This document shows, in pieces, positions 2-29,646 of a DNA stretch of 64,000 bases; position 1 is the first letter of the stretch, and each line of letters begins with the position of its first letter. The DNA lies in NCBI RefSeq assembly GCF_030013205.1, contig NZ_CP122648.1; one strand, 5' to 3'. The notes under the pieces were generated by a model. It searched no databases, was not told the origin of the DNA, and saw nothing but the letters and a program-made list of their open reading frames with translations. Source of the DNA: Escherichia coli. Its GTDB lineage: Bacteria > Pseudomonadota > Gammaproteobacteria > Enterobacterales > Enterobacteriaceae. Made by a program: the position numbers and the translations under genes.

Positions 2-592
2 ATTGGTCTGCTGCTGGCAGGATTAGTCTACTGGGGCTGTACGGTAGTCGTCTTACACTTCGACGCCTATGGTGAACAAATGGCGGCAGCAGCATCGCTT
101 CCAAAAATTGTAGTGCAACTGTTCGGTGTAGGAGCGTTATGGATTGCCTGCGTGATTGGCTATCTGGCCTGCTTTGCCAGTCTCAACATTTATATACAGA
201 GCTTCGCCCGCCTGGTCTGGTCGCAGGCGCAACATAATCCTGACCACTACCTGGCACGCCTCTCTTCTCGTCATATCCCGAATAATGCCCTCAATGCGGT
301 GCTCGGCTGCTGCGTGGTGAGCACGTTGGTGATTCATGCTTTAGAGATCAATCTGGACGCACTTATCATCTATGCCAATGGCATCTTTATTATGATTTAT
401 CTGTTATGCATGCTGGCAGGCTGTAAATTATTGCAAGGACGTTATCGACTACTGGCGGTGGCTGGCGGGCTGTTATGCGTTCTGTTACTGGCAATGGTCG
501 GCTGGAAAAGTCTCTATGCGCTGATCATGCTGGCGGGGTTATGGCTGTTTCTGCCAAAACGAAAAACGCCGGAAAATGGCATAACCACATAA
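2..592 (+). CDS. yjeH: YjeH-family amino-acid exporter, C-terminal part (5' end lies outside window)
   Basis: Open frame from window edge with no stops; hydrophobic multi-TM sequence; position opposite fxsA and before aspA as in E. coli. Confidence 0.8.
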   Translation: MGLLLAGLVYWGCTVVVLHFDAYGEQMAAAASLPKIVVQLFGVGALWIACVIGYLACFASLNIYIQSFARLVWSQAQHNPDHYLARLSSRHIPNNALNAVLGCCVVSTLVIHALEINLDALIIYANGIFIMIYLLCMLAGCKLLQGRYRLLAVAGGLLCVLLLAMVGWKSLYALIMLAGLWLFLPKRKTPENGITT

Positions 593-607
593 TCCGGCGT
601 TTCGGCA

Positions 608-1084
608 TTAATCCTGGCGATCGTCTTTATGATCAAGGCGGTCGCGGTCATCATCCTTTCGCTGGTACTCACCATCAAAAGTATTACCGCCACCGGTCCC
701 GGCGCTAAAACCGCCGCCAGGCATACGGGAAAAACGCAAATGCGGCATCAACTTCACTGTCAGATGCTTTTGCACCGGCGGTAATAAAAGCAGAAGACCG
801 AGGAAGTCGGTGAAAAAGCCCGGTAATAAAAGCAGCAAACCGGCAATGATCAGCGAAACACTTTTAATCATCTCCGCCGCTGGGTTTTCACCTGCCGCCA
901 TTTTTTGCTGCATCAGCACGAAATTCTTAAAGCCCTGGTTACGTACCAGTGACATACCGATAACTGACGTGAATATAACCAGCACGAGGGTCAGCAATAC
1001 CCCCAATACATGGGCAACCTGAATAAAGATTGAAATCTCAATATAGACATAAAGGAAAATGGCAATAAAAGGTAACCAGCGCAA
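608..1084 (-). CDS. fxsA: FxsA inner-membrane protein
   Basis: 158-aa ORF, N-terminal TM helices plus acidic C-terminal tail; conserved position next to aspA. Confidence 0.88.
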   Translation of the reverse strand: MRWLPFIAIFLYVYIEISIFIQVAHVLGVLLTLVLVIFTSVIGMSLVRNQGFKNFVLMQQKMAAGENPAAEMIKSVSLIIAGLLLLLPGFFTDFLGLLLLLPPVQKHLTVKLMPHLRFSRMPGGGFSAGTGGGNTFDGEYQRKDDDRDRLDHKDDRQD

Positions 1085-1420
1085 AGGTTTCTCCTGTAAT
1101 AGCAGCCGGTTAAACCCGGCTACCTGAATGGGTTGCGAATCGCGTTCAGCTTATATTGTGGTCATTAGCAAAATTTCAAGATGTTTGCGCAACTATTTTT
1201 GGTAGTAATCCCAAAGCGGTGATCTATTTCACAAATTAATAATTAAGGGGTAAAAACCGACACTTAAAGTGATCCAGATTACGGTAGAAATCCTCAAGCA
1301 GCATATGATCTCGGGTATTCGGTCGATGCAGGGGATAATCGTCGGTCGAAAAACATTCGAAACCACATATATTCTGTGTGTTTAAAGCAAATCATTGGCA
1401 GCTTGAAAAAGAAGGTTCAC

Positions 1421-2857
1421 ATGTCAAACAACATTCGTATCGAAGAAGATCTGTTGGGTACCAGGGAAGTTCCAGCTGATGCCTACTATGGTGTTCACAC
1501 TCTGAGAGCGATTGAAAACTTCTATATCAGCAACAACAAAATCAGTGATATTCCTGAATTTGTTCGCGGTATGGTAATGGTTAAAAAAGCCGCAGCTATG
1601 GCAAACAAAGAGCTGCAAACCATTCCTAAAAGTGTAGCGAATGCCATCATTGCCGCATGTGATGAAGTCCTGAACAACGGAAAATGCATGGATCAGTTCC
1701 CGGTAGACGTCTACCAGGGCGGCGCAGGTACTTCCGTAAACATGAACACCAACGAAGTGCTGGCCAATATCGGTCTGGAACTGATGGGTCACCAGAAAGG
1801 TGAATATCAGTACCTGAACCCGAACGACCATGTTAACAAATGTCAGTCCACTAACGACGCCTACCCGACCGGTTTCCGTATCGCAGTTTACTCTTCCCTG
1901 ATTAAGCTGGTAGATGCGATTAACCAACTGCGTGAAGGCTTTGAACGTAAAGCTGTCGAATTCCAGGACATCCTGAAAATGGGTCGTACCCAGCTGCAGG
2001 ACGCAGTACCGATGACCCTCGGTCAGGAATTCCGCGCTTTCAGCATCCTGCTGAAAGAAGAAGTGAAAAATATCCAACGTACCGCTGAACTGCTGCTGGA
2101 AGTTAACCTTGGCGCAACAGCAATCGGTACTGGTCTGAACACGCCGAAAGAGTACTCTCCGCTGGCAGTGAAAAAACTGGCTGAAGTCACTGGCTTCCCA
2201 TGCGTACCGGCTGAAGACCTGATCGAAGCGACCTCTGACTGCGGCGCTTATGTAATGGTTCACGGCGCGCTGAAACGCCTGGCTGTGAAGATGTCCAAAA
2301 TCTGTAACGACCTGCGCTTGCTCTCTTCTGGTCCACGTGCCGGCCTGAACGAGATCAACCTGCCGGAACTGCAGGCGGGCTCTTCCATCATGCCAGCTAA
2401 AGTAAACCCGGTTGTTCCGGAAGTGGTTAACCAGGTATGCTTCAAAGTCATCGGTAACGACACCACTGTTACCATGGCAGCAGAAGCAGGTCAGCTGCAG
2501 TTGAACGTTATGGAGCCGGTCATTGGCCAGGCTATGTTCGAATCCGTTCACATTCTGACCAACGCTTGCTACAACCTGCTGGAAAAATGCATTAACGGCA
2601 TCACTGCTAACAAAGAAGTGTGCGAAGGTTACGTTTACAACTCTATCGGTATCGTTACTTACCTGAACCCGTTCATCGGTCACCACAACGGTGACATCGT
2701 GGGTAAAATCTGTGCCGAAACCGGTAAGAGTGTACGTGAAGTCGTTCTGGAACGCGGTCTGTTGACTGAAGCGGAACTTGACGATATTTTCTCCGTACAG
2801 AATCTGATGCACCCGGCTTACAAAGCAAAACGCTATACTGATGAAAGCGAACAGTAA
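1421..2857 (+). CDS. aspA: aspartate ammonia-lyase
   Basis: 478 aa from ATG at 1421 ([13 protein letters not shown]...), fumarase/aspartase family; track ORF begins 15 codons upstream. Confidence 0.97.
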
Positions 2858-2878
2858 TCGTACAGGGTAGTACAAATA

Positions 2879-2910
2879 AAAAAGGCACGTCAGATGACGT
2901 GCCTTTTTTC
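2879..2910 (+). terminator. rho-independent terminator after aspA
   Basis: GC hairpin ggcacgtc/gacgtgcc followed by T6. Confidence 0.6.
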
Positions 2911-2974
2911 TTGTGAGCAGTAACTTAAAAATAACAATCTAATATCAACTTGTTAAAAAACAAGGAAGGCTAAT

Positions 2975-4276
2975 ATGCTAGTTGTAGAACTCATCATAGT
3001 TTTGCTGGCGATCTTCTTGGGCGCCAGATTGGGGGGAATAGGTATTGGTTTTGCAGGCGGATTGGGGGTGCTGGTTCTTGCCGCTATTGGCGTTAAACCC
3101 GGTAACATCCCGTTCGATGTCATTTCCATTATCATGGCGGTTATCGCCGCTATTTCTGCCATGCAGGTTGCTGGCGGTCTGGACTATCTGGTTCATCAGA
3201 CAGAAAAGCTGCTGCGCCGTAACCCGAAATACATCACGATCCTCGCACCGATCGTGACCTATTTCCTGACTATCTTTGCTGGTACTGGCAACATCTCTCT
3301 GGCGACACTGCCAGTTATCGCTGAAGTTGCGAAGGAACAAGGCGTTAAACCTTGCCGTCCGCTGTCTACTGCAGTGGTATCCGCGCAGATTGCGATCACC
3401 GCATCGCCAATCTCAGCGGCAGTGGTTTACATGTCTTCCGTAATGGAAGGTCATGGCATCAGCTACCTCCATCTGCTCTCCGTGGTCATCCCGTCCACCC
3501 TGCTGGCGGTTCTGGTGATGTCCTTCCTGGTCACTATGCTGTTCAACTCCAAACTCTCTGACGATCCGATTTATCGCAAGCGTCTGGAAGAAGGCCTGGT
3601 TGAACTGCGCGGTGAAAAGCAGATTGAAATCAAATCCGGTGCAAAAACGTCCGTCTGGCTGTTCCTGCTGGGCGTAGTTGGCGTTGTTATCTATGCAATC
3701 ATCAACAGCCCAAGCATGGGTCTGGTTGAAAAACCGCTGATGAACACCACCAACGCAATCCTGATCATCATGCTCAGCGTTGCAACTCTGACCACCGTTA
3801 TCTGTAAAGTCGATACCGACAACATCCTCAACTCCAGCACCTTCAAAGCAGGTATGAGCGCCTGTATTTGTATCCTGGGTGTTGCATGGCTGGGCGATAC
3901 TTTCGTTTCCAACAACATCGACTGGATCAAAGATACCGCTGGTGAAGTGATTCAGGGTCATCCGTGGCTGCTGGCCGTCATCTTCTTCTTTGCTTCTGCT
4001 CTGCTGTACTCTCAGGCTGCAACCGCAAAAGCACTGATGCCGATGGCTCTGGCACTGAACGTTTCTCCGCTGACCGCTGTTGCTTCTTTCGCTGCGGTGT
4101 CTGGTCTGTTCATTCTGCCGACCTACCCGACGCTGGTTGCTGCGGTACAGATGGATGACACGGGTACTACCCGTATCGGTAAATTCGTCTTCAACCATCC
4201 GTTCTTCATCCCGGGTACTCTGGGTGTTGCCCTTGCCGTTTGCTTCGGCTTCGTGCTGGGTAGCTTCATGCTGTAA
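2975..4276 (+). CDS. dcuA: anaerobic C4-dicarboxylate transporter DcuA
   Basis: 433-aa polytopic membrane protein, paralogous to the DcuB ORF at 52105. Confidence 0.95.
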   Translation: MLVVELIIVLLAIFLGARLGGIGIGFAGGLGVLVLAAIGVKPGNIPFDVISIIMAVIAAISAMQVAGGLDYLVHQTEKLLRRNPKYITILAPIVTYFLTIFAGTGNISLATLPVIAEVAKEQGVKPCRPLSTAVVSAQIAITASPISAAVVYMSSVMEGHGISYLHLLSVVIPSTLLAVLVMSFLVTMLFNSKLSDDPIYRKRLEEGLVELRGEKQIEIKSGAKTSVWLFLLGVVGVVIYAIINSPSMGLVEKPLMNTTNAILIIMLSVATLTTVICKVDTDNILNSSTFKAGMSACICILGVAWLGDTFVSNNIDWIKDTAGEVIQGHPWLLAVIFFFASALLYSQAATAKALMPMALALNVSPLTAVASFAAVSGLFILPTYPTLVAAVQMDDTGTTRIGKFVFNHPFFIPGTLGVALAVCFGFVLGSFML

Positions 4277-7120: not shown

Positions 7121-7196
7121 GCCCGGATAGCTCAGTCGGTAGAGCAGGGGATTGAAAATCCCCGTGTCCTTGGTTCGATTCCGAGTCCGGGCACCA
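7121..7196 (+). tRNA. pheU: tRNA-Phe (anticodon GAA)
   Basis: 76-nt cloverleaf sequence GCCCGGATAGCTCAGTCGGTAGAGCAGGGGATTGAAAATCCCC...CCA; anticodon loop TTGAAAA. Confidence 0.95.
7174..7196 (+). repeat. attL core (3' end of pheU), duplicated at 38277-38298
   Basis: 23 nt ttcgattccgagtccgggcacca; 22 of these recur (one G fewer) at 38277. Confidence 0.75.
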
Positions 7197-7393: not shown

Positions 7394-8656
7394 ATGGCAC
7401 TGACTGACGCAAAAATCCGGGCTGCAAAGCCCACTGACAAGGCTTATAAACTCACTGACGGGGCCGGCATGTTCCTGCTGGTTCATCCTAATGGTTCCCG
7501 TTACTGGCGTCTCCGCTATCGTATTCTGGGTAAGGAGAAGACTCTGGCACTTGGTGTGTATCCAGAAGTTTCTCTCTCCGAAGCTCGTACAAAACGGGAT
7601 GAGGCCCGAAAACTGATTTCAGAGGGGATTGACCCTTGCGAACAGAAAAGAGCTAAAAAAGTTGTCCCTGATTTACAGCTCTCTTTTGAACATATTGCAC
7701 GACGCTGGCATGCCAGTAATAAACAATGGGCACAATCACACAGCGATAAAGTACTCAAAAGCCTCGAGACACACGTTTTCCCCTTTATCGGCAACCGGGA
7801 TATCACAACACTCAGTACCCCGGACCTGCTTATCCCTGTTCGTGCTGCAGAAGCTAAACAAATTTATGAAATCGCCAGTCGTCTGCAGCAAAGAATATCT
7901 GCTGTAATGCGTTATGCCGTACAGTCTGGCATCATCAGATATAACCCGGCTCTGGATATGGCTGGTGCATTGACCACGGTAAAACGCCAGCATCGCCCTG
8001 CACTGGATCTTTCACGCCTGCCTGAACTTCTGTCGCGTATTGACGGTTATAAAGGCCAGCCTGTCACCCGACTGGCAGTTATGCTGAATTTACTGGTTTT
8101 TATTCGTTCCAGTGAACTCAGATACGCCCGCTGGTCTGAAATTGATATTGACAATGCCATGTGGACTATTCCAGCCGAACGCGAACCTCTGCCTGGCGTA
8201 AAATTCTCACACCGGGGCTCCAAGATGCGAACACCACATCTTGTGCCACTCAGCAAACAGGCTGTAGCCATACTGGCAGAACTACAGACATGGGCTGGTG
8301 AAAATGGTCTGATCTTTACGGGAGCACATGACCCGCATAAACCAATCAGTGAAAATACTGTAAATAAAGCCCTGAGGGTGATGGGGTATGACACAACCCA
8401 GGATGTCTGTGGCCATGGATTCCGTGCGATGGCATGTAGTGCGCTGATCGAATCAGGTTTGTGGTCCCGCGATGCTGTTGAACGTCAGATGAGCCATCAG
8501 GAACGTAACGGTGTACGCGCTGCGTATATCCATAAAGCCGAACATCTGGAAGAACGCCGGCTGATGCTACAGTGGTGGGCAGATTTTCTGAATGCGAACA
8601 GAGAGAAATGTATCAGTCCGTTTGATTATGCAAAGATCAACAATCCATTAAAATAG
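7394..8656 (+). CDS. int: P4-type tyrosine integrase
   Basis: 420 aa directly downstream of tRNA-Phe; N-terminal MALTDAKIRAAKP... and C-terminal HGFRAMA...RAAY tyrosine-recombinase signature. Confidence 0.9.
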   Translation: MALTDAKIRAAKPTDKAYKLTDGAGMFLLVHPNGSRYWRLRYRILGKEKTLALGVYPEVSLSEARTKRDEARKLISEGIDPCEQKRAKKVVPDLQLSFEHIARRWHASNKQWAQSHSDKVLKSLETHVFPFIGNRDITTLSTPDLLIPVRAAEAKQIYEIASRLQQRISAVMRYAVQSGIIRYNPALDMAGALTTVKRQHRPALDLSRLPELLSRIDGYKGQPVTRLAVMLNLLVFIRSSELRYARWSEIDIDNAMWTIPAEREPLPGVKFSHRGSKMRTPHLVPLSKQAVAILAELQTWAGENGLIFTGAHDPHKPISENTVNKALRVMGYDTTQDVCGHGFRAMACSALIESGLWSRDAVERQMSHQERNGVRAAYIHKAEHLEERRLMLQWWADFLNANREKCISPFDYAKINNPLK

Positions 8657-8819: not shown

Positions 8820-9005
8820 ATGCTGCAGGTTCCGACAGCGGCGGCAAATATGCAGCACATATTGTGCTCACTGATCGGCACCTGCCGTCTGAACAATGCG
8901 GAGTCAGAAAAATTGCTGCATTACGTCACAGATCATATGCAGGACTGGTCGGCAAACCGGGTACGCGATCTGTTGCCCTGGAAAGTTGATCTGACCTCTC
9001 AGTAA
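8820..9005 (+). pseudogene. IS66-family transposase C-terminal fragment
   Basis: 61-aa ORF ...LIGTCRLN...LLPWKVDL matches the C-terminus of the larger IS66-like fragment at 9730-10251. Confidence 0.5.
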
Positions 9006-9069
9006 ATATCAATACGGTTCTGGCGAGCCGCTTACAATCGAACTGGGATACAGGGAGATAAAACAGACG

Positions 9070-9429
9070 ATGCAACTGAGCAGGCTGACGCTGAGAAGTA
9101 AAAAGCCGGAGCTTGTGGAGCAAGAGCTGTGGGGTGTCTTACTGGCTTATAATCTGGTGAGATATCAGATGATTAAAATGGCGGAACATCTGAAAGGTTA
9201 CTGGCCGAATCAACTGAGTTTCTCAGAATCATGCGGAATGGTGATGAGAATGCTGATGACATTGCAGGGCGCTTCACCGGGACATATACCGGAGCTGATG
9301 CGCGATCTTGCAAGTATGGGACAACTTGTGAAATTACCGACAATAAGGGAAAGGGCCTTCCCGAGAGTGGTAAAGGAGAGGCCCTGGAAATACCCCACAG
9401 CCCCGAAAAAGAGCCAGTCAGTTGCTTAA
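9070..9429 (+). pseudogene. DDE transposase C-terminal fragment (IS4-like)
   Basis: 119-aa truncated ORF resembling a DDE transposase C-terminal region; no N-terminal catalytic part. Confidence 0.4.
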
Positions 9430-9753
9430 CTGACTGGCATTAGGCCGCCGGGGGCGTTTTTTTACCACCGGGACTTCGGACATAACGGTGTTTTCAGTAA
9501 GTACGACAGGTACTGTGGAGGCACTCCCGTAAAGACGGGCATCAAGTTCCCGCTCCGACATACCTGCGGGCAGAGGCCATGAAAGGCCAGCTTTTCGGAA
9601 GCGCACGAACATACCACAAACTGTTGATTTTGGTACGCCCAGGCGACGTCCGGCCACAATCCGTGGTAAATGTTCTTCAAAGTGAAGACGTAAAGCTTCA
9701 GTGATCCAGGTCCGGTATTCCATACGATAGTGTCCATTAAAAATGATGGACAT
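9418..9753 (-). pseudogene. transposase N-terminal HTH fragment (family uncertain)
   Basis: 111-aa ORF with HTH-like segment (RRLGVPKSTV), embedded among IS debris. Confidence 0.3.
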
Positions 9754-10251
9754 TATTTTTGTGGAGCCGGAGGAAACACACCAGACTGTTTAAATGAGCC
9801 GGTTACCGAAATACGCGGGTTGCCGGTGTCTGAACGCCTGGCGGTCAGGCAAATGCAGAGTAAACCGCTACTGACTTCCCTGTATAAGCTGATGCAGGAG
9901 AAAGAACACACATTATCGAAAAAATGCCGTCTGAGAGATGCGTTCCGGTATATCCGGAAGCACTGGGTTGCGTTGTGCAACTTCTGTGATGATGGTCTGG
10001 CGGAGGCGGATAATAATGCCGCGGAAAGAGCGCTTCGTGCAGTCTGTCTCGGAAAGAAAAACTTTATGTTCTTCGGCAGCGATCACGGCGGCGAGCGAGG
10101 AGCACTGTTGTACGGGCTGATCGGCACCTGCCGACTGAACGGTATCGATCCGGAAGCGTATCTGCGCCATATCCTGAGCGTACTGCCGGAATGGCCTTCC
10201 AACCGAGTTGACGAACTCCTGCCATGGAACGTAGTACTCACCAATAAATAA
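9730..10251 (+). pseudogene. IS66-family transposase (TnpC) C-terminal fragment
   Basis: 173-aa ORF ending ...GIDPEAYLRHILSVLPEWPSNRVDELLPWN; gtaagcg-type end motif about 40 bp downstream. Confidence 0.6.
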
Positions 10252-10385: not shown

Positions 10386-11714
10386 ATGAGCCACAGGGAA
10401 TTGTTCAGCGAATTTCTTGAAAATTTGAATCTTGACCTCAAACAGGCAAAAAAGATCAGCTATCACTATCGAAAAATAACCAAGTCATTAAATCTTGCGT
10501 TCAGAGGAACGAGTTCCCGGGTAGCAAACCGCTTGAAAGTGGGGTCAGTAGGCAGACATACCGCAATAAAAGGCATATCCGATCTGGATATGCTTTATAT
10601 TATGCCCCCCAATCAGTATGAATATTATAACCGTAAGGATAATGGTCAGTCTGCATTGCTTACAGATGTCAGAAACATTCTGGCGGAAGAATATCCTGAC
10701 CAGACTGTGAAAAAGGACAGACTGGTTGTTCAGATCATCTTTAAAAACTTTTATGTCGAGGTTCAACCTGTATTCAGACAGGATGATGACAGCTTTAAAT
10801 TCCCTGAAAGCTATAATGGAGGAGCATGGCGCATTACAAAACCTCTTCACGAAAAGGCGGCCATGACCGCATTTTCGCGAGATAAATCCAATAATCTGCG
10901 CAAGCTGTGTAAAATGATCAGAGCCTGGAAGAACCTGCATGGCGTCAATATGGGTGGCTTACTGATAGACACACTAGCGTATCGCTTTCTTTCATCAACA
11001 TCAGATTATGACAATACCGGAAATGGCAGCCTGGGAGCCCTCGCCAGAGACTTTTTTGAATATCTGTCAAATGAGGAGAGAAAGGAAAGGTATCTCGCGT
11101 TAGGCAGTAATCAGCATGTACGTGTTAAATCTCCCTGGTTTGGCCGGGCAGCGAAACACGCGTATGAATTATGTTGTGATGCCTTAGACGCTGAGGGGGC
11201 TGCCAGTGAAAATGACCGCTGGCGCAAAGTGTTCGGACGAGCCTTCCCCAGACGTAAAGTGGGTATTATGGAAGCCCGTCTTGGTCTGGAATCGCATGCG
11301 GCAGATGCTGTTCCCTGGACCGATACCGAAGAGTTTATAGAGGATAAATATCCGGTGGATATCAGGTACTCACTCAACCTTGACTGTACCGTAACCCAGG
11401 ATGGTTTCCCTCCCAGAAGCCTGAGGGAGATGCTTACCAGAAGATTCCGCCTCTCCGCTCGAAAATCTCTCCTTTTCCGGGCAGACTTGACAGAAATGGA
11501 GGCAGAGGAACCCTACACCGTTATGTGGAAGGTACTGAACGTGGGTGACGAAGCACGCAGAAGAAATATGATCCGGGGACAAATCGTTTCGGACGGCGGC
11601 TACTGTACGAAGAAAGAAACTACCGACTTCCGCGGAGATCACATGGTAGAATGCTATGTGATAAAAAATGAGGTTGTGGTTGCCCGGGCCCAGATTGAAG
11701 TTCCCATAAGCTGA
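10386..11714 (+). CDS. Pol-beta-fold nucleotidyltransferase with C-terminal extension (SMODS/CD-NTase-like plus AGS-C-like region)
   Basis: ATG with SD aaagga; GS-x10-SDLD nucleotidyltransferase signature (VGSVGRHTAIKGISDLD); about 150-aa C-terminal extension; AT-rich gene. Confidence 0.6.
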   Translation: MSHRELFSEFLENLNLDLKQAKKISYHYRKITKSLNLAFRGTSSRVANRLKVGSVGRHTAIKGISDLDMLYIMPPNQYEYYNRKDNGQSALLTDVRNILAEEYPDQTVKKDRLVVQIIFKNFYVEVQPVFRQDDDSFKFPESYNGGAWRITKPLHEKAAMTAFSRDKSNNLRKLCKMIRAWKNLHGVNMGGLLIDTLAYRFLSSTSDYDNTGNGSLGALARDFFEYLSNEERKERYLALGSNQHVRVKSPWFGRAAKHAYELCCDALDAEGAASENDRWRKVFGRAFPRRKVGIMEARLGLESHAADAVPWTDTEEFIEDKYPVDIRYSLNLDCTVTQDGFPPRSLREMLTRRFRLSARKSLLFRADLTEMEAEEPYTVMWKVLNVGDEARRRNMIRGQIVSDGGYCTKKETTDFRGDHMVECYVIKNEVVVARAQIEVPIS

Positions 11715-11721
11715 GGTTTTT

Positions 11722-12297
11722 ATGACGCAATCAGAGATGCTGAAATTAATCGCCCGACATGGTTATAACGTTGGATTTGGCGCTAAGAAAAACTTTGCCA
11801 CCTATGATCTGATTTGTAAGGCATCCGGTTGGATTAGCTTTATTTCTCTTGCTGTCGGTGTGTTCGCCCTTTTTATTCCTGAGCTGGCCACAAACGTCAT
11901 TTCCGCGATATTAATTATATTTGGTGTTGCTACAATGTACATTCAGTTTTATGACTCGGAAAAGCAGAGTTATGAAAGTGCGGGGATTGAGCAGACCAAA
12001 ATTTTTAATGAACTTGAAGTCATCTACCGCAACGTAAAAAGCGATGCAAACTTTGACTATCAGCGTACACAACAATCCATCGACGCTATCATGTCCCGGT
12101 TTTACGGCACGGTCATCAGCAAACAGATCTTCGGAAGTAACTGGTACGCACATTATAAATTTTACTGTGAATTTGAAAAAGCATGGGTTGAAGAAGAGCT
12201 GAACCTGACACTGAAGGACAAAATCCCGCTTTCGCTCTGCTTTCTCGCCGGTCTGGCGATCATTTTTACTATAGCTGTCATCTGGAAAACGCCCTGA
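11722..12297 (+). CDS. small multi-TM membrane protein (SLATT-like predicted effector)
   Basis: 191 aa, starts 8 nt after the nucleotidyltransferase stop with SD gagg; two adjacent N-proximal hydrophobic helices and one C-terminal helix. Confidence 0.55.
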   Translation: MTQSEMLKLIARHGYNVGFGAKKNFATYDLICKASGWISFISLAVGVFALFIPELATNVISAILIIFGVATMYIQFYDSEKQSYESAGIEQTKIFNELEVIYRNVKSDANFDYQRTQQSIDAIMSRFYGTVISKQIFGSNWYAHYKFYCEFEKAWVEEELNLTLKDKIPLSLCFLAGLAIIFTIAVIWKTP

Positions 12298-12848
12298 TGC
12301 TGCAGCCAATGAAAAATTCAGCAAGCTGACTGTCAAATATGCGATGTATAGCCGGTATCACCATCCAGTGTACGTTCTATAAGGGGGGCGCTTGGAAAAC
12401 GGGTAGAGTCAAGATGTGGCGCGGTAATTTTACAGGTCAGGCATATCTGTTGCCGCCTCTTTCGATTGGCGGTGCCTTACTGTCCTGACCATAAATCCTG
12501 TTTCCACACCCCGCTCATCGAAGCGGACATGCGCTTCTAACACATCCGGCTCTCGGACAGAATCATGCCTTCGCCCACGGAAACCTCTGCGGGAGCTTCG
12601 GTGCATATTTTCATGGAAGGGGATCACCCAATAACTTCCATCGAGATCGGGTCATAACGGCCAATCCGTGATCGAATAGAGCGGAATACGCACTCTGACG
12701 AACTGCTTACATTTAAACTAATTACAAACTATATAAATCCGCCTTGCTCATTCACAGGGTAGATATATTCTTACTTTTAATTTTATGTGTAATTAACTGA
12801 TGACGAAAAATGAATTGAACTGTAAATGCATATCTAAGTTTTTCATTC

Positions 12849-13574
12849 TTATGATGTACATAATACCTTAAAATTATCAACTAGCTGAGCATTAACCTCC
12901 ATCTGACTAATCCCCCATAATGCGGCTAACTGTTTCTCTGCAATCCCACTATCCCATGGCATTAGTGGGTCATTACGAAACTTAGCAAATGGCCCATCTG
13001 TTTCTGTAAGAATGCGTGATTTGGGTATTTTCAAAACTAAGGCCTTACCCTTTATTGTATCGAGCATAGCAGGCCCCACTGAGAACCAGCATCCTAAATC
13101 AATTGCCCTTTCAAGCTGCTTAGGTGTTCCAGTGAACCAATGCAATATTGCCACCCCATCGATATTTTCAATCTCATCAAGCACCGCTGATGCACTTCCC
13201 CGACTATGGATAGTCATAATCTTGCCACCAGCCCGATTTACACTGTTGAGAATGTGTCGGAACACTTTCAATTGAATATCCCAATGTTCTTTAAATCCCT
13301 GTCCACCATCAAGCCCTATTTCCCCTACATACTTAGTTTCCGAAAGCAATGAATCAAACAGGTCTAACTCATGCGATCTTTGATGCGCGATTTGAGGATG
13401 TAGCCCAAGAGCAGTTCGGATTCGTTGACTTTCTTTAGCCAATAAAGAAGTACCATGCCATGCTTTAGGTGTTGTTGTCACCGACAGAATATAAGTCCCT
13501 CGACGTTTACTTTCTTCAGCCACGAGGTCTGGCCGAGGATATAAGTCTAGATGACAGTGCATATCGATGCTCAT
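12849..13574 (-). CDS. qatD: TatD-family metal-dependent DNase (QatD)
   Basis: 241 aa; N-terminal HxH metal motif (MSIDMHCHLDLYP); start ATG overlaps qatC stop (ATGA). Confidence 0.8.
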   Translation of the reverse strand: MSIDMHCHLDLYPRPDLVAEESKRRGTYILSVTTTPKAWHGTSLLAKESQRIRTALGLHPQIAHQRSHELDLFDSLLSETKYVGEIGLDGGQGFKEHWDIQLKVFRHILNSVNRAGGKIMTIHSRGSASAVLDEIENIDGVAILHWFTGTPKQLERAIDLGCWFSVGPAMLDTIKGKALVLKIPKSRILTETDGPFAKFRNDPLMPWDSGIAEKQLAALWGISQMEVNAQLVDNFKVLCTS

Positions 13575-14890: not shown

Positions 14891-15624
14891 TCTTGCCAGG
14901 CCTCAATAATGGCCTGACGTTCAATTTTTACCATTTGGTTTCGTGTGAACGATCTTATGTTACCGGCAAGTTTTGGTGCCATATGTTTATCAACAACAAC
15001 TTTAATCAATTCCCGGAGTTCAATTTCTGCATGAATTGCCTTTGAAGGTGTATCTGCTTTGTTCCATGCCCTATTAGAATCCATTACCATCTGAAGGAAA
15101 ATACTTTCCGCTAGATAACCAATCATTGTGTCAACAATCACACCATCAGTTATTTTTTGAGGATCGAAAATTTCTACGCCATCAAGAGCCTCCACTAAAG
15201 CATGGTTCATGGCCGCACAGATCTTTTCTGAGTCACCATCCTGTGATGTTAAAGCTTGAGCAATAGTTGATATTGCTATTTCGCATGGAAGGCCTGCCAA
15301 ACTGCCCAAATCGATGCTTGGTTCTCCGGGAGCCGAAGGCATTCCCACTAAAGCCCCAAATAATTCGGCCCCAGCTTGCGTGACACTCCCTAATCGCCGA
15401 GCAGCGTTACTGCTCCCTCCGGAGGCTTTTCGCGCGTAGTGCCCTATGGCTTTTCTGAAATCTGCTCGATTTCCATTTGATACCGCATTTCCCAACGATT
15501 CTCGAAATGGCGCAAACCTCCTTTCTTGCGGCGAGGGTAACGGTTGCTGTGGCTGATCATCAGCCCATGGTGGAACCAGCGGAGAGCCACCTCCTGGACC
15601 TTTACTTGATTGTGATGTTCCCAT
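14872..15624 (-). CDS. qatB: QatB (function unknown)
   Basis: 250 aa Gly/Pro-rich protein between the KAP ATPase and QueC-like genes; start overlaps qatA stop by 1 nt, 3' end overlaps qatC by 19 nt. Confidence 0.65.
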   Translation of the reverse strand: MGTSQSSKGPGGGSPLVPPWADDQPQQPLPSPQERRFAPFRESLGNAVSNGNRADFRKAIGHYARKASGGSSNAARRLGSVTQAGAELFGALVGMPSAPGEPSIDLGSLAGLPCEIAISTIAQALTSQDGDSEKICAAMNHALVEALDGVEIFDPQKITDGVIVDTMIGYLAESIFLQMVMDSNRAWNKADTPSKAIHAEIELRELIKVVVDKHMAPKLAGNIRSFTRNQMVKIERQAIIEAWQEWEAYQ

Positions 15625-17408
15625 TAAGCGTCCTTATTCCATTGTTCATCTTTTAATGCTGCAGTCATCCACGCTGGTCGTTTCATCCCCAACTGTAATT
15701 CCTGTAGATAACGAATTAATATGCTGGCTGCATCTGTTGAGTAGCGGGCCAACAGACATGCGCCGGAAAAGCCTCTGGGCTTACGATCCCAATCTGATAC
15801 CTGCCGTAACTGGTTAATTAAACCTTCCATTACAGGTATTTGCTCCTCACGAGGAAGTGCTTTCAAAAGGTTTTCTGCTGTAGGAGAACTAGTGTTTTTC
15901 AATTCAATTAGTGCATTTAGTACTTCCCGTCCAGATGGCGATAAACCAACCACATATGCACCTATTGGCATAGTTTCTCGGGACAGATATATGGCGGCCC
16001 TTAAGTCAATCCCACCAAGACGAGGTTCAAGTTGGGCCCATTGACTGATGAAAGATTTAGTCGTTGGACTATCAGTCCATGTCTTTGGTGCATCAGTAGG
16101 TATTTGACCGCCATTATCGTCAAGCTGTTTAAGTATCTGGGGAACACCTTGTTCAATATCCACGAGATGATATAAATCAGCGGTGCCATCCACTCCAACA
16201 CAGCGTTCAAAAATTACTAGCTTAGTAATAATTGCTTCATCCAAAGGCATTGCTCGTCGCTTCGCAATTTGAGATCGCATTTTCACAACATTCAACAAGC
16301 GTTTAACGATCCTGGGATTACCATGAATAATTGGAGAGTTGGCTAAAATGGGAGCAATACGGTCAGCACGCGCAAACGCCAGCGCGAGGTTGCTATCATC
16401 CGCTTCACCAGTCATTTTTAAGGCCTCCTGACGTGAGATTGGTTCATCTTTCCAGGATTGCTGTAACGCCTTCTCTAAGCCCTCACGGAGCATAGTTATT
16501 TTTTCGCCTTCTAAGCCATGTTCAATGGCATAAAGCATGAACAGATACGAACGGATCTCACGGACCCCAGCCTTAGGCACCCGAATAGGAACCTGGATTA
16601 GCTTATCCAGATAATCTATTTGATGGCGCTGTGATGCCCCTTTGAAGTAATCAGCCACAGAAGAGCGAATCATGTCCTCATCTGCTGCAATAATAAAGGC
16701 TGTATTAGTCAAGAAAAGGAATAGCCTGATAGCTTCAAGTGTATGGATAGCATTGGCAGGGAGACAGCGGTCTAGGTTATCTATTACCACAATGAGTGGC
16801 TTTCCAAGTTCTTCTAGAATTTCCCCATATTCCTTACGAAAGGCATCAATCTGCTGAGGGGGGCTTTTTTTTGTTTGTGGTTTAATCAAACCACAAGCAG
16901 TTTCTTTACCTTCTTTAGCTATATTGCCTAAAGCCTCATACTCTTCCTGACTCTGGATGCCATCGGTGATATTTCTTAATGCACCAATCCCCCTAGAAAG
17001 CAAACCGCCAGTAGGTAATCCTGCCATTAAAGCTGTACCCTCAGCTAGTAATCCCATAGCTCTAAAACCATCAACTCGACTAAGGAGTCTCTTAGTTTTT
17101 GATATAAGGGTAGAATTACCTTCAGCAGCTTTTGTCAATTCTGTAGCGATGACTTCAAGAAGTGCGGCACGGGCGTCGTCGTACCCCTGATAGAGCCAAG
17201 AGTCAAAATTGATAACAATCCAATCTTTGTCGTCTTGCTCAAGTTTTTGCTCTATCAGTTTTAACAGAGAGGATTTACCTGCCCCCCAGTTTCCAAAAAT
17301 TCCGATAGATACTGGTAACATATCTTTCGTGGTAAGTACATCCACGGCTAACTGAGATACTTCACCAAAATTTAGGTAGTCTTCTGATGACTCTTTGTCT
17401 GACCACAT
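15624..17408 (-). CDS. qatA: KAP-family P-loop NTPase (QatA)
   Basis: 594 aa; Walker A GNWGAGKSS near N-terminus. Confidence 0.8.
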   Translation of the reverse strand: MWSDKESSEDYLNFGEVSQLAVDVLTTKDMLPVSIGIFGNWGAGKSSLLKLIEQKLEQDDKDWIVINFDSWLYQGYDDARAALLEVIATELTKAAEGNSTLISKTKRLLSRVDGFRAMGLLAEGTALMAGLPTGGLLSRGIGALRNITDGIQSQEEYEALGNIAKEGKETACGLIKPQTKKSPPQQIDAFRKEYGEILEELGKPLIVVIDNLDRCLPANAIHTLEAIRLFLFLTNTAFIIAADEDMIRSSVADYFKGASQRHQIDYLDKLIQVPIRVPKAGVREIRSYLFMLYAIEHGLEGEKITMLREGLEKALQQSWKDEPISRQEALKMTGEADDSNLALAFARADRIAPILANSPIIHGNPRIVKRLLNVVKMRSQIAKRRAMPLDEAIITKLVIFERCVGVDGTADLYHLVDIEQGVPQILKQLDDNGGQIPTDAPKTWTDSPTTKSFISQWAQLEPRLGGIDLRAAIYLSRETMPIGAYVVGLSPSGREVLNALIELKNTSSPTAENLLKALPREEQIPVMEGLINQLRQVSDWDRKPRGFSGACLLARYSTDAASILIRYLQELQLGMKRPAWMTAALKDEQWNKDA

Positions 17409-18980: not shown

Positions 18981-19190
18981 TCATGGCAGCCTCTCCGGTT
19001 TGCCAGCGTGTTCCACCTGATAACGATTAATCAGCTGATTCAGTGCCATTTCAGCCTGTTTTTGCTGCTGTTCACTGCCATTCTGGTTACGGGCTTCATC
19101 ATAGCGACGTAACTGCTCTTCCGCCGGGATATGCCGGTTAAAAGCCTGCATGATGCCAAACACCTCTGTTTTCAGTTCACTGACCGTCAT
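18981..19190 (-). CDS. small hypothetical protein
   Basis: 69 aa from internal ATG with SD gggga (track ORF 84 aa); Gln/Glu-rich helical sequence. Confidence 0.4.
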   Translation of the reverse strand: MTVSELKTEVFGIMQAFNRHIPAEEQLRRYDEARNQNGSEQQQKQAEMALNQLINRYQVEHAGKPERLP

Positions 19191-19950
19191 GTATTTTCCC
19201 CGCTGTTCATCCAGACGGTTCAGGCGCTCAGCCATCCGCGGCCTGAAGAGATAAAGGCGATAATAAAACAGACATCAGTGTCAGTGACAGCAAGGACGGA
19301 CAGCGCCGGAATAAGCTTTGTTCCTCAGCCCTCACGTTCCTGCAACATAATTTTCCAGCCAAACGAAAAACCTTTTATTCATGCCATACCAATAATCGCC
19401 AGCCTCCTGGCGATGCCTCCCACCATGTTTTGCAGTGGTACGCTACCGCCCTTCCGGTATTTACCCGCATCAACCGGTACCAGAATGCTGAGTAACAAAC
19501 CAGCTCAGAACTGACTGAATTTTGATCATTATAGAATAATGATCTGAACTGCAGCAATATAACAGATTTATCGATCGATATAACGCAAATGAACAGATCT
19601 TTATTCTGTCATATATCGCAAAAACAGCACATTACAAAATTTATAACCATAATTAATGGAAAAGTGCAGAAAATTATTCCACTGAATGCTTTTAATACAG
19701 TTAGTTAGCTAAAAAAATAGCAATTTTTGATTTCAGTCATTGAAAATTGCAATGCGTGACGATTCAACAGCATTTAAGTGAGTTTCAGGATATGGGAAGG
19801 ACATGAAAGGAGGAGCGCAATAAAATATACAGGAAGAAGGGGAAAATGTTTCGTAAAAACAGAAAATTAACAGCGCACATCAGGAAACTCAGTCTCCTGA
19901 TTCAGTGCTACCACATGAAAATTTAGTTAACTGTTACCGTACTAAAATTT

Positions 19951-20142
19951 ATGTCAGAAGATGTTCCATTACCGAAAGTCAATCAGCGATACAAAGACGA
20001 TCATGGTGCGCTTGTCACCGTGACCAGTGTTGAGGAAACCCGGGTGGTGTTTATGCGGGACGGCTATCCGCATCCCTGCATGCGACCGATGTACAACTTT
20101 CTGGGAAAATTCAAACCCGAACCCCGGGAAGAAACAGAATAA
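19951..20142 (+). CDS. small island protein (DUF4222-like)
   Basis: 63-aa ORF MSEDVPLPKVNQRYKDDHG...; family assignment from memory. Confidence 0.4.
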   Translation: MSEDVPLPKVNQRYKDDHGALVTVTSVEETRVVFMRDGYPHPCMRPMYNFLGKFKPEPREETE

Positions 20143-20194
20143 AACGAAATCCCTGCCGGCAATCACACTGCCTGATGGCAGCATAATCCACTTA

Positions 20195-20428
20195 TTAATT
20201 CTCATCCCCGGAGACAAGCCCAGAAAACCACTCCGGGTGTTCACTGTATGCCGTGTTCAGCGCATCCCAGGAAACGTTTATATAAAAGCTGTCCTGCAAT
20301 TTCCGGGTAACCACCTCTGCCAGGCGGTTCCGGTTATCCGCCAGTCCGGCATAACCTCTCTCTGTCAGCCACTCATTCAGTTCATGTTTCAGAGACAGAT
20401 TAATAATCTCATAATCGGACCTTGCCAT
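20195..20428 (-). CDS. small hypothetical protein
   Basis: 77 aa from ATG 20428 with SD aagga upstream. Confidence 0.4.
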   Translation of the reverse strand: MARSDYEIINLSLKHELNEWLTERGYAGLADNRNRLAEVVTRKLQDSFYINVSWDALNTAYSEHPEWFSGLVSGDEN

Positions 20429-29389: not shown

Positions 29390-29432
29390 AAACGATCGAT
29401 AAAACAGGTATCGATCGCCATCATCGATCGTT
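29390..29432. promoter_or_regulatory. three clustered GATC sites upstream of Ag43 (Dam/OxyR phase-variation switch)
   Basis: GATC at 29394, 29413 and 29426 within 36 bp, about 220 bp upstream of the Ag43 start. Confidence 0.6.
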
Positions 29433-29646
29433 TATAGTGGTTAATGACCTGCGAAAAGGCAGTTGATTCTCTTCATCATGCAGAACGGAATTGCACACAA
29501 CGGACTGATGCTTCTCTGGCGGATGAGAGAGGGGAAGCATTTATGTCCGAGAAAAACCACTTTATCTGACCATGCTGTTTTGTACCTGCCGGTATCCACA
29601 TTTGTGGGTACCGGCTTTTTTATTCACCCTCTGTAAGGAAAAGCTG

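What the first reader, a model, noticed from the sequence alone, without database searches (positions are those of the whole stretch)
12380..12600. GC-rich structured non-coding segment between the multi-TM gene and qatD
This roughly 220-bp stretch is markedly more GC-rich than the flanking AT-rich genes and contains an imperfect 22-bp-arm hairpin (ggtcaggcatatctgttgccgcc ... ggcggtgccttactgtcctgacc). The only ORF through it (12430-12627, minus) lacks a ribosome-binding site. It may be a structured RNA, a recombination site or a gene remnant.
Basis: seen in the sequence. Interest (0 to 1): 0.25.

Follow-up and report, generated by a model that had tools for sequence, protein, structure and literature searches.

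The report
Dead group II intron tail
The GC-rich hairpin segment is the unannotated, inactive last 199 bases of a group II intron, wedged between half a transposon end and two insertion-sequence ends; it is ordinary mobile-element debris and was already catalogued in 2012.

Summary
Window 12350-12650 is 51-59% GC against 25-49% in the flanks. An imperfect hairpin at 12435-12490 folds better than all 200 shuffles.

The segment is not a new RNA. It is a mosaic of three mobile-element relics between an NTase/SLATT cassette and the Qat operon in an E. coli tRNA-Phe island:
- **12383-12402 (+):** the outer 20 nt of a 38-bp Tn3-family terminal inverted repeat.
- **12403-12601 (-):** the 3' 199 nt of a 1989-nt group II intron, 96.5% identical to an intact copy in a Buttiauxella plasmid. 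It holds the last 12 codons of the reverse transcriptase/maturase, domain V and a long domain VI.
- **12602-12692:** a left end and a right end of IS21-family elements with no genes between them.

Across 14 homologues, domain V, the branch-A stem and the hairpin all show compensatory changes. The window's domain V has a broken catalytic-triad pair, and the 5' 1790 nt of the intron are missing.

Window 12403-12579 is 100% identical to fragment "E.c.F10a" (class F) of Leclercq & Cordaux 2012.

Verdict: already known, non-functional relic, low interest.

The parts
12383..12402 (+). Outer 20 nt (GGGGGGCGCTTGGAAAACGG) of a 38-bp Tn3-family terminal inverted repeat. On the minus strand it is the intron's 3' exon. 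The inner 18 nt of the repeat are missing.
   Evidence: It has 2 mismatches to the outer half of the intact, unoccupied repeat GGGGTCCGCTTGGAAAACGG|AAAATATCCTACGTTAAG. That repeat occurs in Yersinia pCFS1934 (about 1.3 kb beyond tnpR and a Tn3-family tnpA) and in pLVPK. The composite target is found in 3596 plasmid records. Similarity among the four enterobacterial intron copies stops at the GGGG end.
12403..12601 (-). 5'-truncated group II intron remnant, equal to nt 1791-1989 of a 1989-nt intron. It is fragment E.c.F10 of Leclercq & Cordaux 2012, class F in that paper's table.
   Evidence: 96.5% identical over 199 nt to the 3' end of the intact Buttiauxella pBTX_57 intron. That intron has an ltrA with RVT_1 and GIIM domains, a D1D4-4 match of 104 bits and a 5' GTGCG. 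It is 73-80% identical (blastn) to eleven of the other introns of alpha-, beta- and gamma-proteobacteria and a planctomycete listed; ten of them are in the 14-sequence alignment. Window 12403-12579 is 100% identical to CFT073 NC_004431:4296437-4296613, which is E.c.F10a.
12563..12601 (-). Last 12 codons (PKLPQRFPWAKA) and the TGA stop of the intron-encoded reverse transcriptase/maturase.
   Evidence: tblastn of the Buttiauxella protein: residues 453-464 match window 12601-12566 at 92% identity. In Buttiauxella, ltrA ends 39 nt inside the DNA match.
12520..12552 (-). Domain V (GAGCCGGAUGUGUUAGAAGCGCAUGUCCGCUUC), degenerate. A G-to-C change at 12523 breaks the C-G pair of the AGC catalytic triad.
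   Evidence: The Rfam Intron_gpII alignment covers 12403-12554 at 17.3 bits. The intact relative scores 38.8 bits and the gathering score is 40. The pair at columns 59-85 is C-G in 13 of 14 sequences and C-C only in the window.
12406..12516 (-). Domain VI, unusually long (about 111 nt). It has a 13-bp basal stem with a bulged branch-point A at 12409, 7 nt from the 3' end ...GACUCUAC. A short 3-bp helix follows, then a distal arm.
   Evidence: RNAalifold consensus and pair counts: the basal helix is 100% paired with 4 compensatory pairs, and the bulged A column is invariant.
12435..12490 (-).
   Evidence: Helices 4 and 5 carry 7 pairs with changes on both sides. MFE z = -3.25.
12602..12658 (+). 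Left terminal region (starting TGCATATTTTCATGG...) of an ISEc12-like IS21-family element. It begins exactly where the intron homology stops.
   Evidence: 91-92% identical to the left end of ISEc12 in strain ZH193. There it lies 137 nt upstream of istA and interrupts a lom gene with a 5-bp ACTTT duplication. Related copies occur in 3163 of 5426 E. coli genomes.
12659..12692 (+). Right terminal 34 nt (...GATCGAATAGAGCGGAATACGCA) of an ISSso4-like IS21-family element.
   Evidence: 100% identical to the sequence just after istB of an ISSso4-family IS21-like element that splits a terminase gene. Solo copies exist on plasmids. No istA/istB lies between the two ends, and no target duplication flanks 12602-12692.

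Best explanation
The segment is a stack of three dead mobile-element relics with no present function. It reads on the minus strand.

Proposed history. The anatomy is shown; the order of events is inferred.
1. A Tn3-family transposon end lay just downstream of the NTase/SLATT cassette, with its GGGG outer tip at 12383 and its interior to the right.
2. A group II intron (class F in the 2012 catalogue) retrohomed into that 38-bp inverted repeat between repeat positions 20 and 21, reading outward.
3. An IS21-family element inserted at intron nt 1790/1791, in the last codons of the reverse transcriptase gene.
4. Deletions or recombination between IS copies then removed four things: the IS interior, the 5' 1790 nt of the intron, the inner half of the repeat and the rest of the transposon. 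This fused what was left to the AT-rich spacer behind qatD.

What survives of the intron is the 3' tail. In an intact copy, domain V is the catalytic centre and the long domain VI presents the bulged branch-point adenosine. The GC-richness and the structure are inherited from the ribozyme.

Here the ribozyme cannot work. Domains I-IV and the protein are gone, and domain V has lost a catalytic-triad base pair.

The whole block (NTase/SLATT, relics, Qat) has since travelled as a unit between genomic islands.
For: Setting: the window is 100% identical to an E. coli O157:H16 chromosome. The order there is tRNA-Phe, integrase, IS debris, NTase, SLATT, the unannotated gap, then qatD-qatC-qatB-KAP NTPase.

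Intron identity:
- blastn of 12340-12700 hits the 3' ends of annotated ltrA-bearing group II introns.
- The best hit is an intact 1989-nt Buttiauxella intron. It has a 5' GTGCG, a D1D4-4 match of 104 bits, an ltrA with RVT_1 and GIIM domains, and an Intron_gpII match of 38.8 bits.
- Window 12601-12403 equals intron nt 1791-1989 at 96.5% identity.

3' boundary: in 14 homologues, conservation stops sharply after ...GACTCTAC. Unoccupied target sites confirm the junction.

Structure: 42 pairs are 96.8% paired, and 16 pairs have compensatory changes against 6.1 in shuffles (0 of 500 shuffles reach the observed value). Slid-partner controls give 32-46% pairing.

Decay:
- The C-C mismatch in domain V is unique to the window.
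- The Rfam score falls from 38.8 to 17.3 bits.
- No other intron piece, no 5' exon motif and no further protein match is in the 64-kb window.
- The 5' 1790 nt of the intron have no megablast match in 5,426 complete E. coli genomes.

IS ends.

Prior record: E.c.F10a/b in PMC3522654 Tables S2 and S3 has identical sequence and the same SLATT-qatD gap in CFT073 and APEC O1. That paper reports 111 intron fragments, forming 55 distinct copies, in 90 Enterobacteriales genomes.

The block 12298-12848 is 99.6% identical in CFT073 and APEC O1, which the paper places in islands at different positions.
Against: - The order of events is inferred only from junctions. No intermediate was found, such as an intact intron downstream of this SLATT gene.
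- The two IS21-type ends resemble two different IS21 subgroups, so their origin (one hybrid element or two truncated ones) is unresolved.
- The class F assignment comes from the paper's table and was not re-derived here.
- Absence of function was not tested. The segment is retained at 99% identity or more in 243 E. coli genomes and partly on plasmid pEC507. That fits recent common descent but does not exclude use, for example as part of a 3' UTR.
- No expression data were available.
Confidence: 0.94

Rival explanations
1. The intron tail has been exapted as a functional RNA element. It might act as a structured 3' UTR or stabiliser, as a terminator for the convergent NTase/SLATT and Qat operons, or as an antisense regulator.
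For: The segment lies between two convergent defence operons, so read-through from either side would transcribe it. It folds stably. The arrangement is kept in 243 of 5426 E. coli genomes, and the left part also sits next to the same cassette on plasmid pEC507.
Against: - The terminator scan reports no site at the hairpin, and no T-run follows it on either strand.
- No promoter-like site lies inside it.
- No Rfam family other than the intron matches.
- All E. coli copies are nearly identical, so conservation carries no signal of selection.
- In pEC507 an IS2 cuts the segment at window 12502 and removes domain V without loss of the cassette.
- The covariation comes entirely from intact introns elsewhere.
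Confidence: 0.04
2. The ORF at 12430-12627 (-), or another small ORF here, encodes a small protein.
For: A 65-aa GTG-started ORF exists. An overlapping ORF on the same strand in the Xenorhabdus intron is annotated as a hypothetical protein.
Against: - The ORF starts inside the IS21 left end and runs into the intron, so it is a chimera of two unrelated relics.
- It has no Pfam match.
- In the same frame, 8 of the 10 more distant homologues carry in-frame stops, and most are frameshifted.
- The region is explained by RNA pairing.
Confidence: 0.01
3. The segment is an active recombination or transposition site: a usable Tn3-family or IS21-family end that mobilises the neighbouring defence cassettes.
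For: It contains a transposon repeat tip and both kinds of IS21-family termini. The NTase/SLATT-Qat block occurs in islands at different chromosomal positions and the cassette occurs on a plasmid.
Against: - Only 20 of the 38 bp of the Tn3-type repeat remain.
- No second copy of either half of the repeat (at most 4 mismatches) is in the 64-kb window.
- The 91-bp IS21 remnant has no target duplication and no istA/istB.
- The inner part of a Tn3-family repeat is needed for transposase binding. This rests on my own knowledge of Tn3-family biology, not on a test here.
- Movement of the block is equally explained by the flanking integrase and IS3/IS2 copies.
Confidence: 0.01

Closest known systems
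Group II intron fragment E.c.F10a/E.c.F10b (Leclercq & Cordaux 2012, PLoS One 7:e52268, Tables S2 and S3)
   Same: Window 12403-12579 is 100% identical to the CFT073 coordinates given for E.c.F10a. The gene neighbourhood (SLATT gene, gap, qatD) is the same in CFT073 and APEC O1.
   Different: The paper lists 177 bp at 77% similarity to D.a.I1 and gives no homing site for this fragment. With a closer intact relative the fragment extends to 199 nt (to 12601). Both of its ends can now be assigned, to half a Tn3-family repeat and to an IS21 left end.
Intact group II intron on Buttiauxella sp. 3AFRM03 plasmid pBTX_57 (ltrA WP_121813216.1), with near relatives in Xenorhabdus and Enterobacter ludwigii plasmids
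   Same: 96.5% identity over the last 199 nt. It has the same domain V, the same long domain VI with a bulged A, the same ...GACUCUAC 3' end and the same 3' exon, which is the outer half of a Tn3-family repeat.
   Different: The Buttiauxella copy is complete: 1989 nt, a 5' GTGCG, domains I-IV and a 464-aa RT/maturase without an endonuclease domain. Its domain V is intact. The window has only 10% of the intron and a broken domain V pair.
Canonical group II intron domains V and VI (Rfam RF00029 Intron_gpII)
   Same: A 33-nt domain V with the AGC triad position. A domain VI stem with a bulged A 7 nt from an AC 3' end.
   Different: Domain VI is about 111 nt, with a roughly 100-nt insertion relative to the 77-position Rfam model. 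The window copy scores 17.3 bits and even the intact relative scores 38.8, both below the gathering score of 40.
IS21-family elements ISEc12 and ISSso4-like
   Same: The terminal sequences match: 57 nt of a left end at 91-92% and 34 nt of a right end at 100%.
   Different: No istA/istB, no internal sequence and no target-site duplication. The two ends resemble different subgroups.

Membership tests
Group II intron (as a fragment) | Sequence homology to an intron that has all the parts: 5' GUGYG, domains I-IV, an RT/maturase ORF in domain IV, and domains V and VI | tested here: met
   Window 12403-12601 equals nt 1791-1989 of the Buttiauxella intron at 96.5%. That intron has GTGCG, a D1D4-4 match of 104 bits, RVT_1 and GIIM domains, and domains V and VI.
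Group II intron (as a fragment) | Domain V: a hairpin of about 34 nt with a paired AGC triad and a 2-nt bulge | tested here: inconclusive
   It is present at 12520-12552 (-) and aligns to Rfam domain V. The C of AGC faces a C, a change unique among 14 homologues. Intron_gpII scores 17.3 bits, below the gathering score of 40. It is recognisable but degenerate.
Group II intron (as a fragment) | Domain VI: a helix with a bulged branch-point A 7-8 nt from a 3'-terminal AY | tested here: met
   A 13-bp stem that is 100% paired in 14 sequences with 4 compensatory pairs. The bulged A is at 12409, 7 nt from ...UAC-3' at 12403.
Functional (complete) group II intron | 5' GUGYG, domains I-IV with exon-binding sites, and an intact reverse transcriptase/maturase | tested here: not met
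   Only the 3' 199 nt are present. blastn and tblastn with the full intron and its protein find nothing else in the window. There is no megablast match to the 5' 1790 nt in 5,426 E. coli genomes.
Bacterial class F group II introns | Phylogenetic placement of the protein and RNA with class F references such as D.a.I1 | not tested
   The class is taken from Table S2 of PMC3522654. No class reference sequences were available to test it here.
Tn3-family terminal inverted repeat | A repeat of about 38 bp beginning GGGG and ending TAAG at the end of an element with a Tn3-family transposase | tested here: inconclusive
   The window has only the outer 20 nt. The full 38-bp unoccupied form (GGGG...ACGTTAAG) lies beyond tnpR and Tn3-family tnpA in pCFS1934. 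The partner repeat of that transposon was not found in the 3.3 kb examined. The GGGG/TAAG hallmark is from my own knowledge. The 38-bp length is supported by the text read.
IS21-family insertion sequence | istA and istB genes between terminal repeats that start TG and end CA, with a target duplication | tested here: not met
   The ends are present (TGCA... at 12602 and ...CGCA at 12692). There are no genes between them and no duplication. It is a remnant only.
Intrinsic terminator | A GC-rich stem-loop followed by a T-run | tested here: not met
   The scan of 12100-13000 finds none at the hairpin, and the sequence after either arm lacks a T-run.
Any other curated RNA family (Rfam 15) | A covariance-model match at or near the gathering score | tested here: not met
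   Only chance-level hits (E above 3) outside the segment at the 2-kb scale. In the 241-nt scan only intron models match.

The most novel reading that the evidence does not exclude
The relic records a group II intron lineage of Enterobacterales that homes into the 38-bp terminal inverted repeat of Tn3-family transposons, between repeat positions 20 and 21. Such an intron would parasitise, and probably disable, one end of another mobile element. I found no description of this target in the searchable literature. The fragment itself would still be inert.
Probability: 0.35. Interest if true: 0.3.

Novelty: already known. Interest (0 to 1): 0.08.

Why it matters
It matters little for biology and somewhat for annotation. 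The segment is unannotated in RefSeq (features under the match: none), and it looks like a candidate regulatory RNA beside two anti-phage systems. Showing that it is a catalogued group II intron fragment flanked by a half transposon repeat and IS21 ends removes a false lead.

It also illustrates that the joints between defence cassettes in E. coli islands are built from layered mobile-element debris. ORFs called across domains V and VI of such introns are spurious; one such ORF is annotated in Xenorhabdus.

The only mildly new points are the exact boundaries and the inferred homing site of this intron subgroup inside a Tn3-family inverted repeat.

Tried and rejected
- **Rfam, 2-kb scan at E up to 10:** no intron hit. 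Only a 241-nt scan with laxer filters recovered Intron_gpII, at 17.3 bits. A gathering-threshold scan of the whole window found only a tRNA and IS102 RNA.
- **Gap-free inverted-repeat search:** did not report the hairpin.
- **GTGCG at 12694-12690 (-):** I first suspected a group II intron 5' end, which would have meant an internally deleted intron. I rejected this. Those bases are the terminus of an IS21-family right end plus one flanking base, and 12595-12760 shares nothing with the full intron.
- **Coding hypothesis for ORF 12430-12627 (-):** no Pfam match and the frame is not conserved.
- **Terminator or promoter role:** no supporting sites.
- **Exon-binding/intron-binding pairing to support retrohoming into the repeat:** inconclusive. 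A 9-nt complement in the Buttiauxella intron is not shared by the Xenorhabdus copy.
- **Partner repeat of the Yersinia transposon:** not found in the 3.3 kb upstream of tnpR.
- **Literature searches:** two for a group II intron targeting Tn3-family repeats and one for class F domain VI features. None was relevant.
- **Intact copy of this intron in E. coli:** none at megablast sensitivity.

Full report
**Setting**

The window is E. coli chromosome. A 461-nt query around the finding is 100% identical to E. coli O157:H16 98-3133 and many other strains. Annotation of the identical genome and the ORF list give this order:
- tRNA-Phe at 7121-7193
- a tyrosine integrase at 7394-8656
- IS4 and IS66 pseudogene debris at about 8825-10251
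- a nucleotide-binding (NTase-like) gene at 10386-11714 (+)
- a SLATT-domain gene at 11722-12297 (+)
- an unannotated gap
- the convergent Qat operon on the minus strand: qatD 12849-13574, qatC, a hypothetical (qatB position) and a KAP NTPase at 15624-17408

The finding lies in the gap. RefSeq annotates nothing there.

**Observation check**

- GC content is 0.51-0.59 across 12350-12650, 0.39-0.49 in the end of the SLATT gene and 0.25-0.28 at 12700-12900.
- The quoted hairpin arms are at 12435-12457 and 12468-12490.
- Folded as minus-strand RNA, the hairpin has an MFE of -18.6 kcal/mol, z = -3.25, and no shuffle among 200 does as well.
- The surrounding 150 nt fold to -55.8 kcal/mol, z = -4.17.
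- ORF 12430-12627 (-) exists. Two other small ORFs also overlap the segment.

**What it is: the intron tail**

A blastn search of 12340-12700 against plasmids hit the 3' ends of annotated ltrA genes, which encode group II intron reverse transcriptase/maturases. Identity was 96% in a Buttiauxella plasmid, 92-94% in Xenorhabdus and Enterobacter ludwigii, and 73-80% in Bradyrhizobium, Sinorhizobium, Microvirga, Burkholderia/Paraburkholderia, Azotobacter, another Enterobacter group and a planctomycete.

The Buttiauxella element is a complete intron on the strand corresponding to the window's minus strand:
- It starts GTGCGCCGTG....
- It matches Rfam group-II-D1D4-4 at 104 bits.
- It encodes a 464-aa protein with RVT_1 and GIIM domains and no endonuclease domain.
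- It matches Rfam Intron_gpII (domains V and VI) at 38.8 bits.
- It is 1989 nt long.

Window 12601-12403 equals its nt 1791-1989 at 96.5% identity. tblastn places the last 12 residues of the protein (PKLPQRFPWAKA) at 12601-12566, followed by a stop. Nothing else of the intron or its protein is in the 64-kb window.

**Structure**

I aligned the window with 13 homologues. Conservation ends abruptly after ...GACTCTAC, which fixes the 3' splice site at window 12403.

RNAalifold and explicit pair counting give these helices:
- Domain V at window 12520-12552.
- A 13-bp stem with an invariant bulged A at window 12409, 7 nt from the 3' end. This is the signature of domain VI.
- A 3-bp helix.
- A distal arm made of two helices capped by CGAAAG.

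Over 42 pairs, 96.8% of cells are paired. Sixteen pairs show changes on both sides, against 6.1 ± 1.4 in column shuffles (0 of 500 shuffles reach the observed value). Sliding the 3' partners by 1-3 columns drops pairing to 32-46%. The hairpin is therefore a genuine, selected RNA helix, but in intact introns. Domain VI is long: about 111 nt, with a roughly 100-nt insertion relative to the 77-position Rfam model.

**Decay**

- The window's domain V reads GAGCCGGAUGUGUUAGAAGCGCAUGUCCGCUUC.
- The pair formed by the C of the AGC triad is C-G in 13 of 14 sequences and C-C only here. The change is a G-to-C substitution at 12523.
- The Rfam score falls from 38.8 to 17.3 bits.
- The 5' 1790 nt of the intron have no megablast match in any of 5,426 complete E. 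coli genomes.
- The frame of ORF 12430-12627 is broken by stops or shifts in the more distant homologues, and the ORF has no Pfam match. Conservation is at the RNA level, not the protein level.

**Left boundary: half a transposon repeat**

The four enterobacterial copies share about 20 nt beyond the 3' splice site (CCGTTTTCCAAGCG..CCCC) and then diverge. The two intact copies also share a 5' exon...CTTAACGTA..ATAA.TT.

I joined the two exon halves and searched plasmids with the result. It matched 3596 records, 3327 of them over at least 80% of the query.

The unoccupied sequence is GGGGTCCGCTTGGAAAACGGAAAATATCCTACGTTAAG, 38 bp. In Yersinia plasmid pCFS1934 it lies beyond a resolvase gene and a Tn3-family transposase gene.

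The 38-bp length is characteristic of Tn3-family ends according to the text read. The GGGG...TAAG hallmark rests on my own knowledge of Tn3, Tn21 and gamma-delta repeats.

So window 12383-12402 (+) is the outer 20 nt of such a repeat, with 2 mismatches. The intron sits between repeat positions 20 and 21 and reads from the transposon interior outward. The inner half of the repeat is absent from the window.

**Right boundary: two IS21-family ends**

The intron homology stops at 12601.

From 12602, TGCATATTTTCATGGAAGGGGATCACCC... matches the left end of the IS21-like element ISEc12 at 91-92% identity. In strain ZH193 that end lies 137 nt upstream of istA, and the element splits a lom gene with a 5-bp ACTTT duplication. 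Related copies occur in 3163 of 5426 E. coli genomes.

From 12659 to 12692...GCCAATCCGTGATCGAATAGAGCGGAATACGCA is identical to the right terminus of an ISSso4-family IS21-like element just after istB.

No IS genes lie between the two ends. The flanks (AGCTTCGG and CTCTGACG) are not a duplication. This is a 91-bp IS21-family remnant whose insertion and later deletion truncated the intron.

**Prior record**

Leclercq & Cordaux (2012, PMC3522654) surveyed 90 Enterobacteriales genomes. They found 111 group II intron fragments, forming 55 distinct copies.

[quoted passage not shown] It lists E.c.F10b in APEC O1 and S88 as the same fragment in an island at a different position.

The CFT073 coordinates (NC_004431:4296437-4296613) fall in the SLATT-qatD gap and are 100% identical to window 12403-12579. 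APEC O1 has the same arrangement. The feature is therefore already catalogued.

My additions are these:
- the true extent of the fragment (199 nt)
- the domain assignment of the hairpin
- the damaged domain V
- both junctions

**Mechanism and history**

The anatomy is shown. The order of events is inferred:
1. A Tn3-family end lay downstream of the SLATT gene.
2. The intron retrohomed into the repeat.
3. An IS21-family element inserted at intron nt 1790/1791.
4. Deletions removed the IS interior, the 5' 90% of the intron, the inner half of the repeat and the transposon.

The block 12298-12848 is 99.6% identical in CFT073 and APEC O1. The NTase/SLATT cassette with the half repeat and the intron tail up to window 12502 also sits on plasmid pEC507, where it is cut by IS2. 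The relic predates the spread of the block.

**Rivals**

- **Exapted RNA, terminator or regulator.** No terminator or promoter pattern is at the hairpin. No other Rfam family matches. Conservation among E. coli copies is uninformative, and IS2 truncation is tolerated in pEC507. I give this about 4%.
- **Small protein.** I give this about 1%.
- **Active transposition site.** I give this about 1%: only a half repeat, no partner repeat and no IS genes.

**Verdict**

The feature is real, ordinary and already known: an inert group II intron tail in mobile-element debris.

The only point that may be new is peripheral. This intron subgroup appears to home into a Tn3-family inverted repeat, and I could not find this in the searchable literature.

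Noticed in passing
window 12383-12402; L004 4020-6008; L006 2621-4609; L007 about 2621; L022 5008-5045; L023 5008-5045: The enterobacterial subgroup of this intron sits inside a 38-bp Tn3-family terminal inverted repeat, between positions 20 and 21, in four different contexts (the window, Buttiauxella, Xenorhabdus, E. ludwigii). The unoccupied repeat occurs in 3596 plasmid records. More distant relatives (Azotobacter, Burkholderia) sit beside IS66-family genes instead. I found no description of a Tn3-repeat homing site.
   Followed up: partly
window 12406-12516 (-); alignment A2 columns 92-209: Domain VI of this intron lineage is about 111 nt, with a covarying distal arm capped by a GAAA-type loop. 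The Rfam model accommodates it only as a roughly 100-nt insertion. Even the intact Buttiauxella intron scores 38.8 bits, below the family's gathering score of 40, so such introns would be missed by a gathering-threshold scan of domains V and VI.
   Followed up: partly
window 12602-12692: A 91-bp unit made of an ISEc12-like left end and an ISSso4-like right end, with no genes and no target duplication. It could be a hybrid deletion derivative of one IS21-family element or two truncated elements. Solo copies of each end are common: the left end in 3163 of 5426 E. coli genomes, and the right end on many plasmids.
   Followed up: partly
window 10386-12297 (+); L005 2047-3973: The two-gene NTase-like plus SLATT cassette beside Qat is annotated only generically. 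It also occurs on the IncF plasmid pEC507 between IS3-family and IS2 copies. It looks like a separate mobile defence-type module.
   Followed up: no
L006 2570-2857 (-): In the Xenorhabdus plasmid a 'hypothetical protein' is annotated across the intron's domains V and VI, overlapping the end of ltrA. One search tested the frame of the window's own ORF, which is not conserved in the more distant homologues. By analogy the Xenorhabdus call is probably spurious, but its frame was not tested.
   Followed up: partly
window 29392-29628 (+): Rfam IS102 RNA match at 68.2 bits (gathering score 46), indicating an IS-associated small RNA elsewhere in the window.
   Followed up: no
window about 8825-10251 and about 19035-20396 (from L001 annotation, offset +4299): Further debris in the same tRNA-Phe island: IS4 and IS66 transposase pseudogenes upstream of the NTase gene, plus type VI secretion remnants (a VasL-domain gene and a partial ImpA-family gene) beyond the Qat operon.
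   Followed up: no
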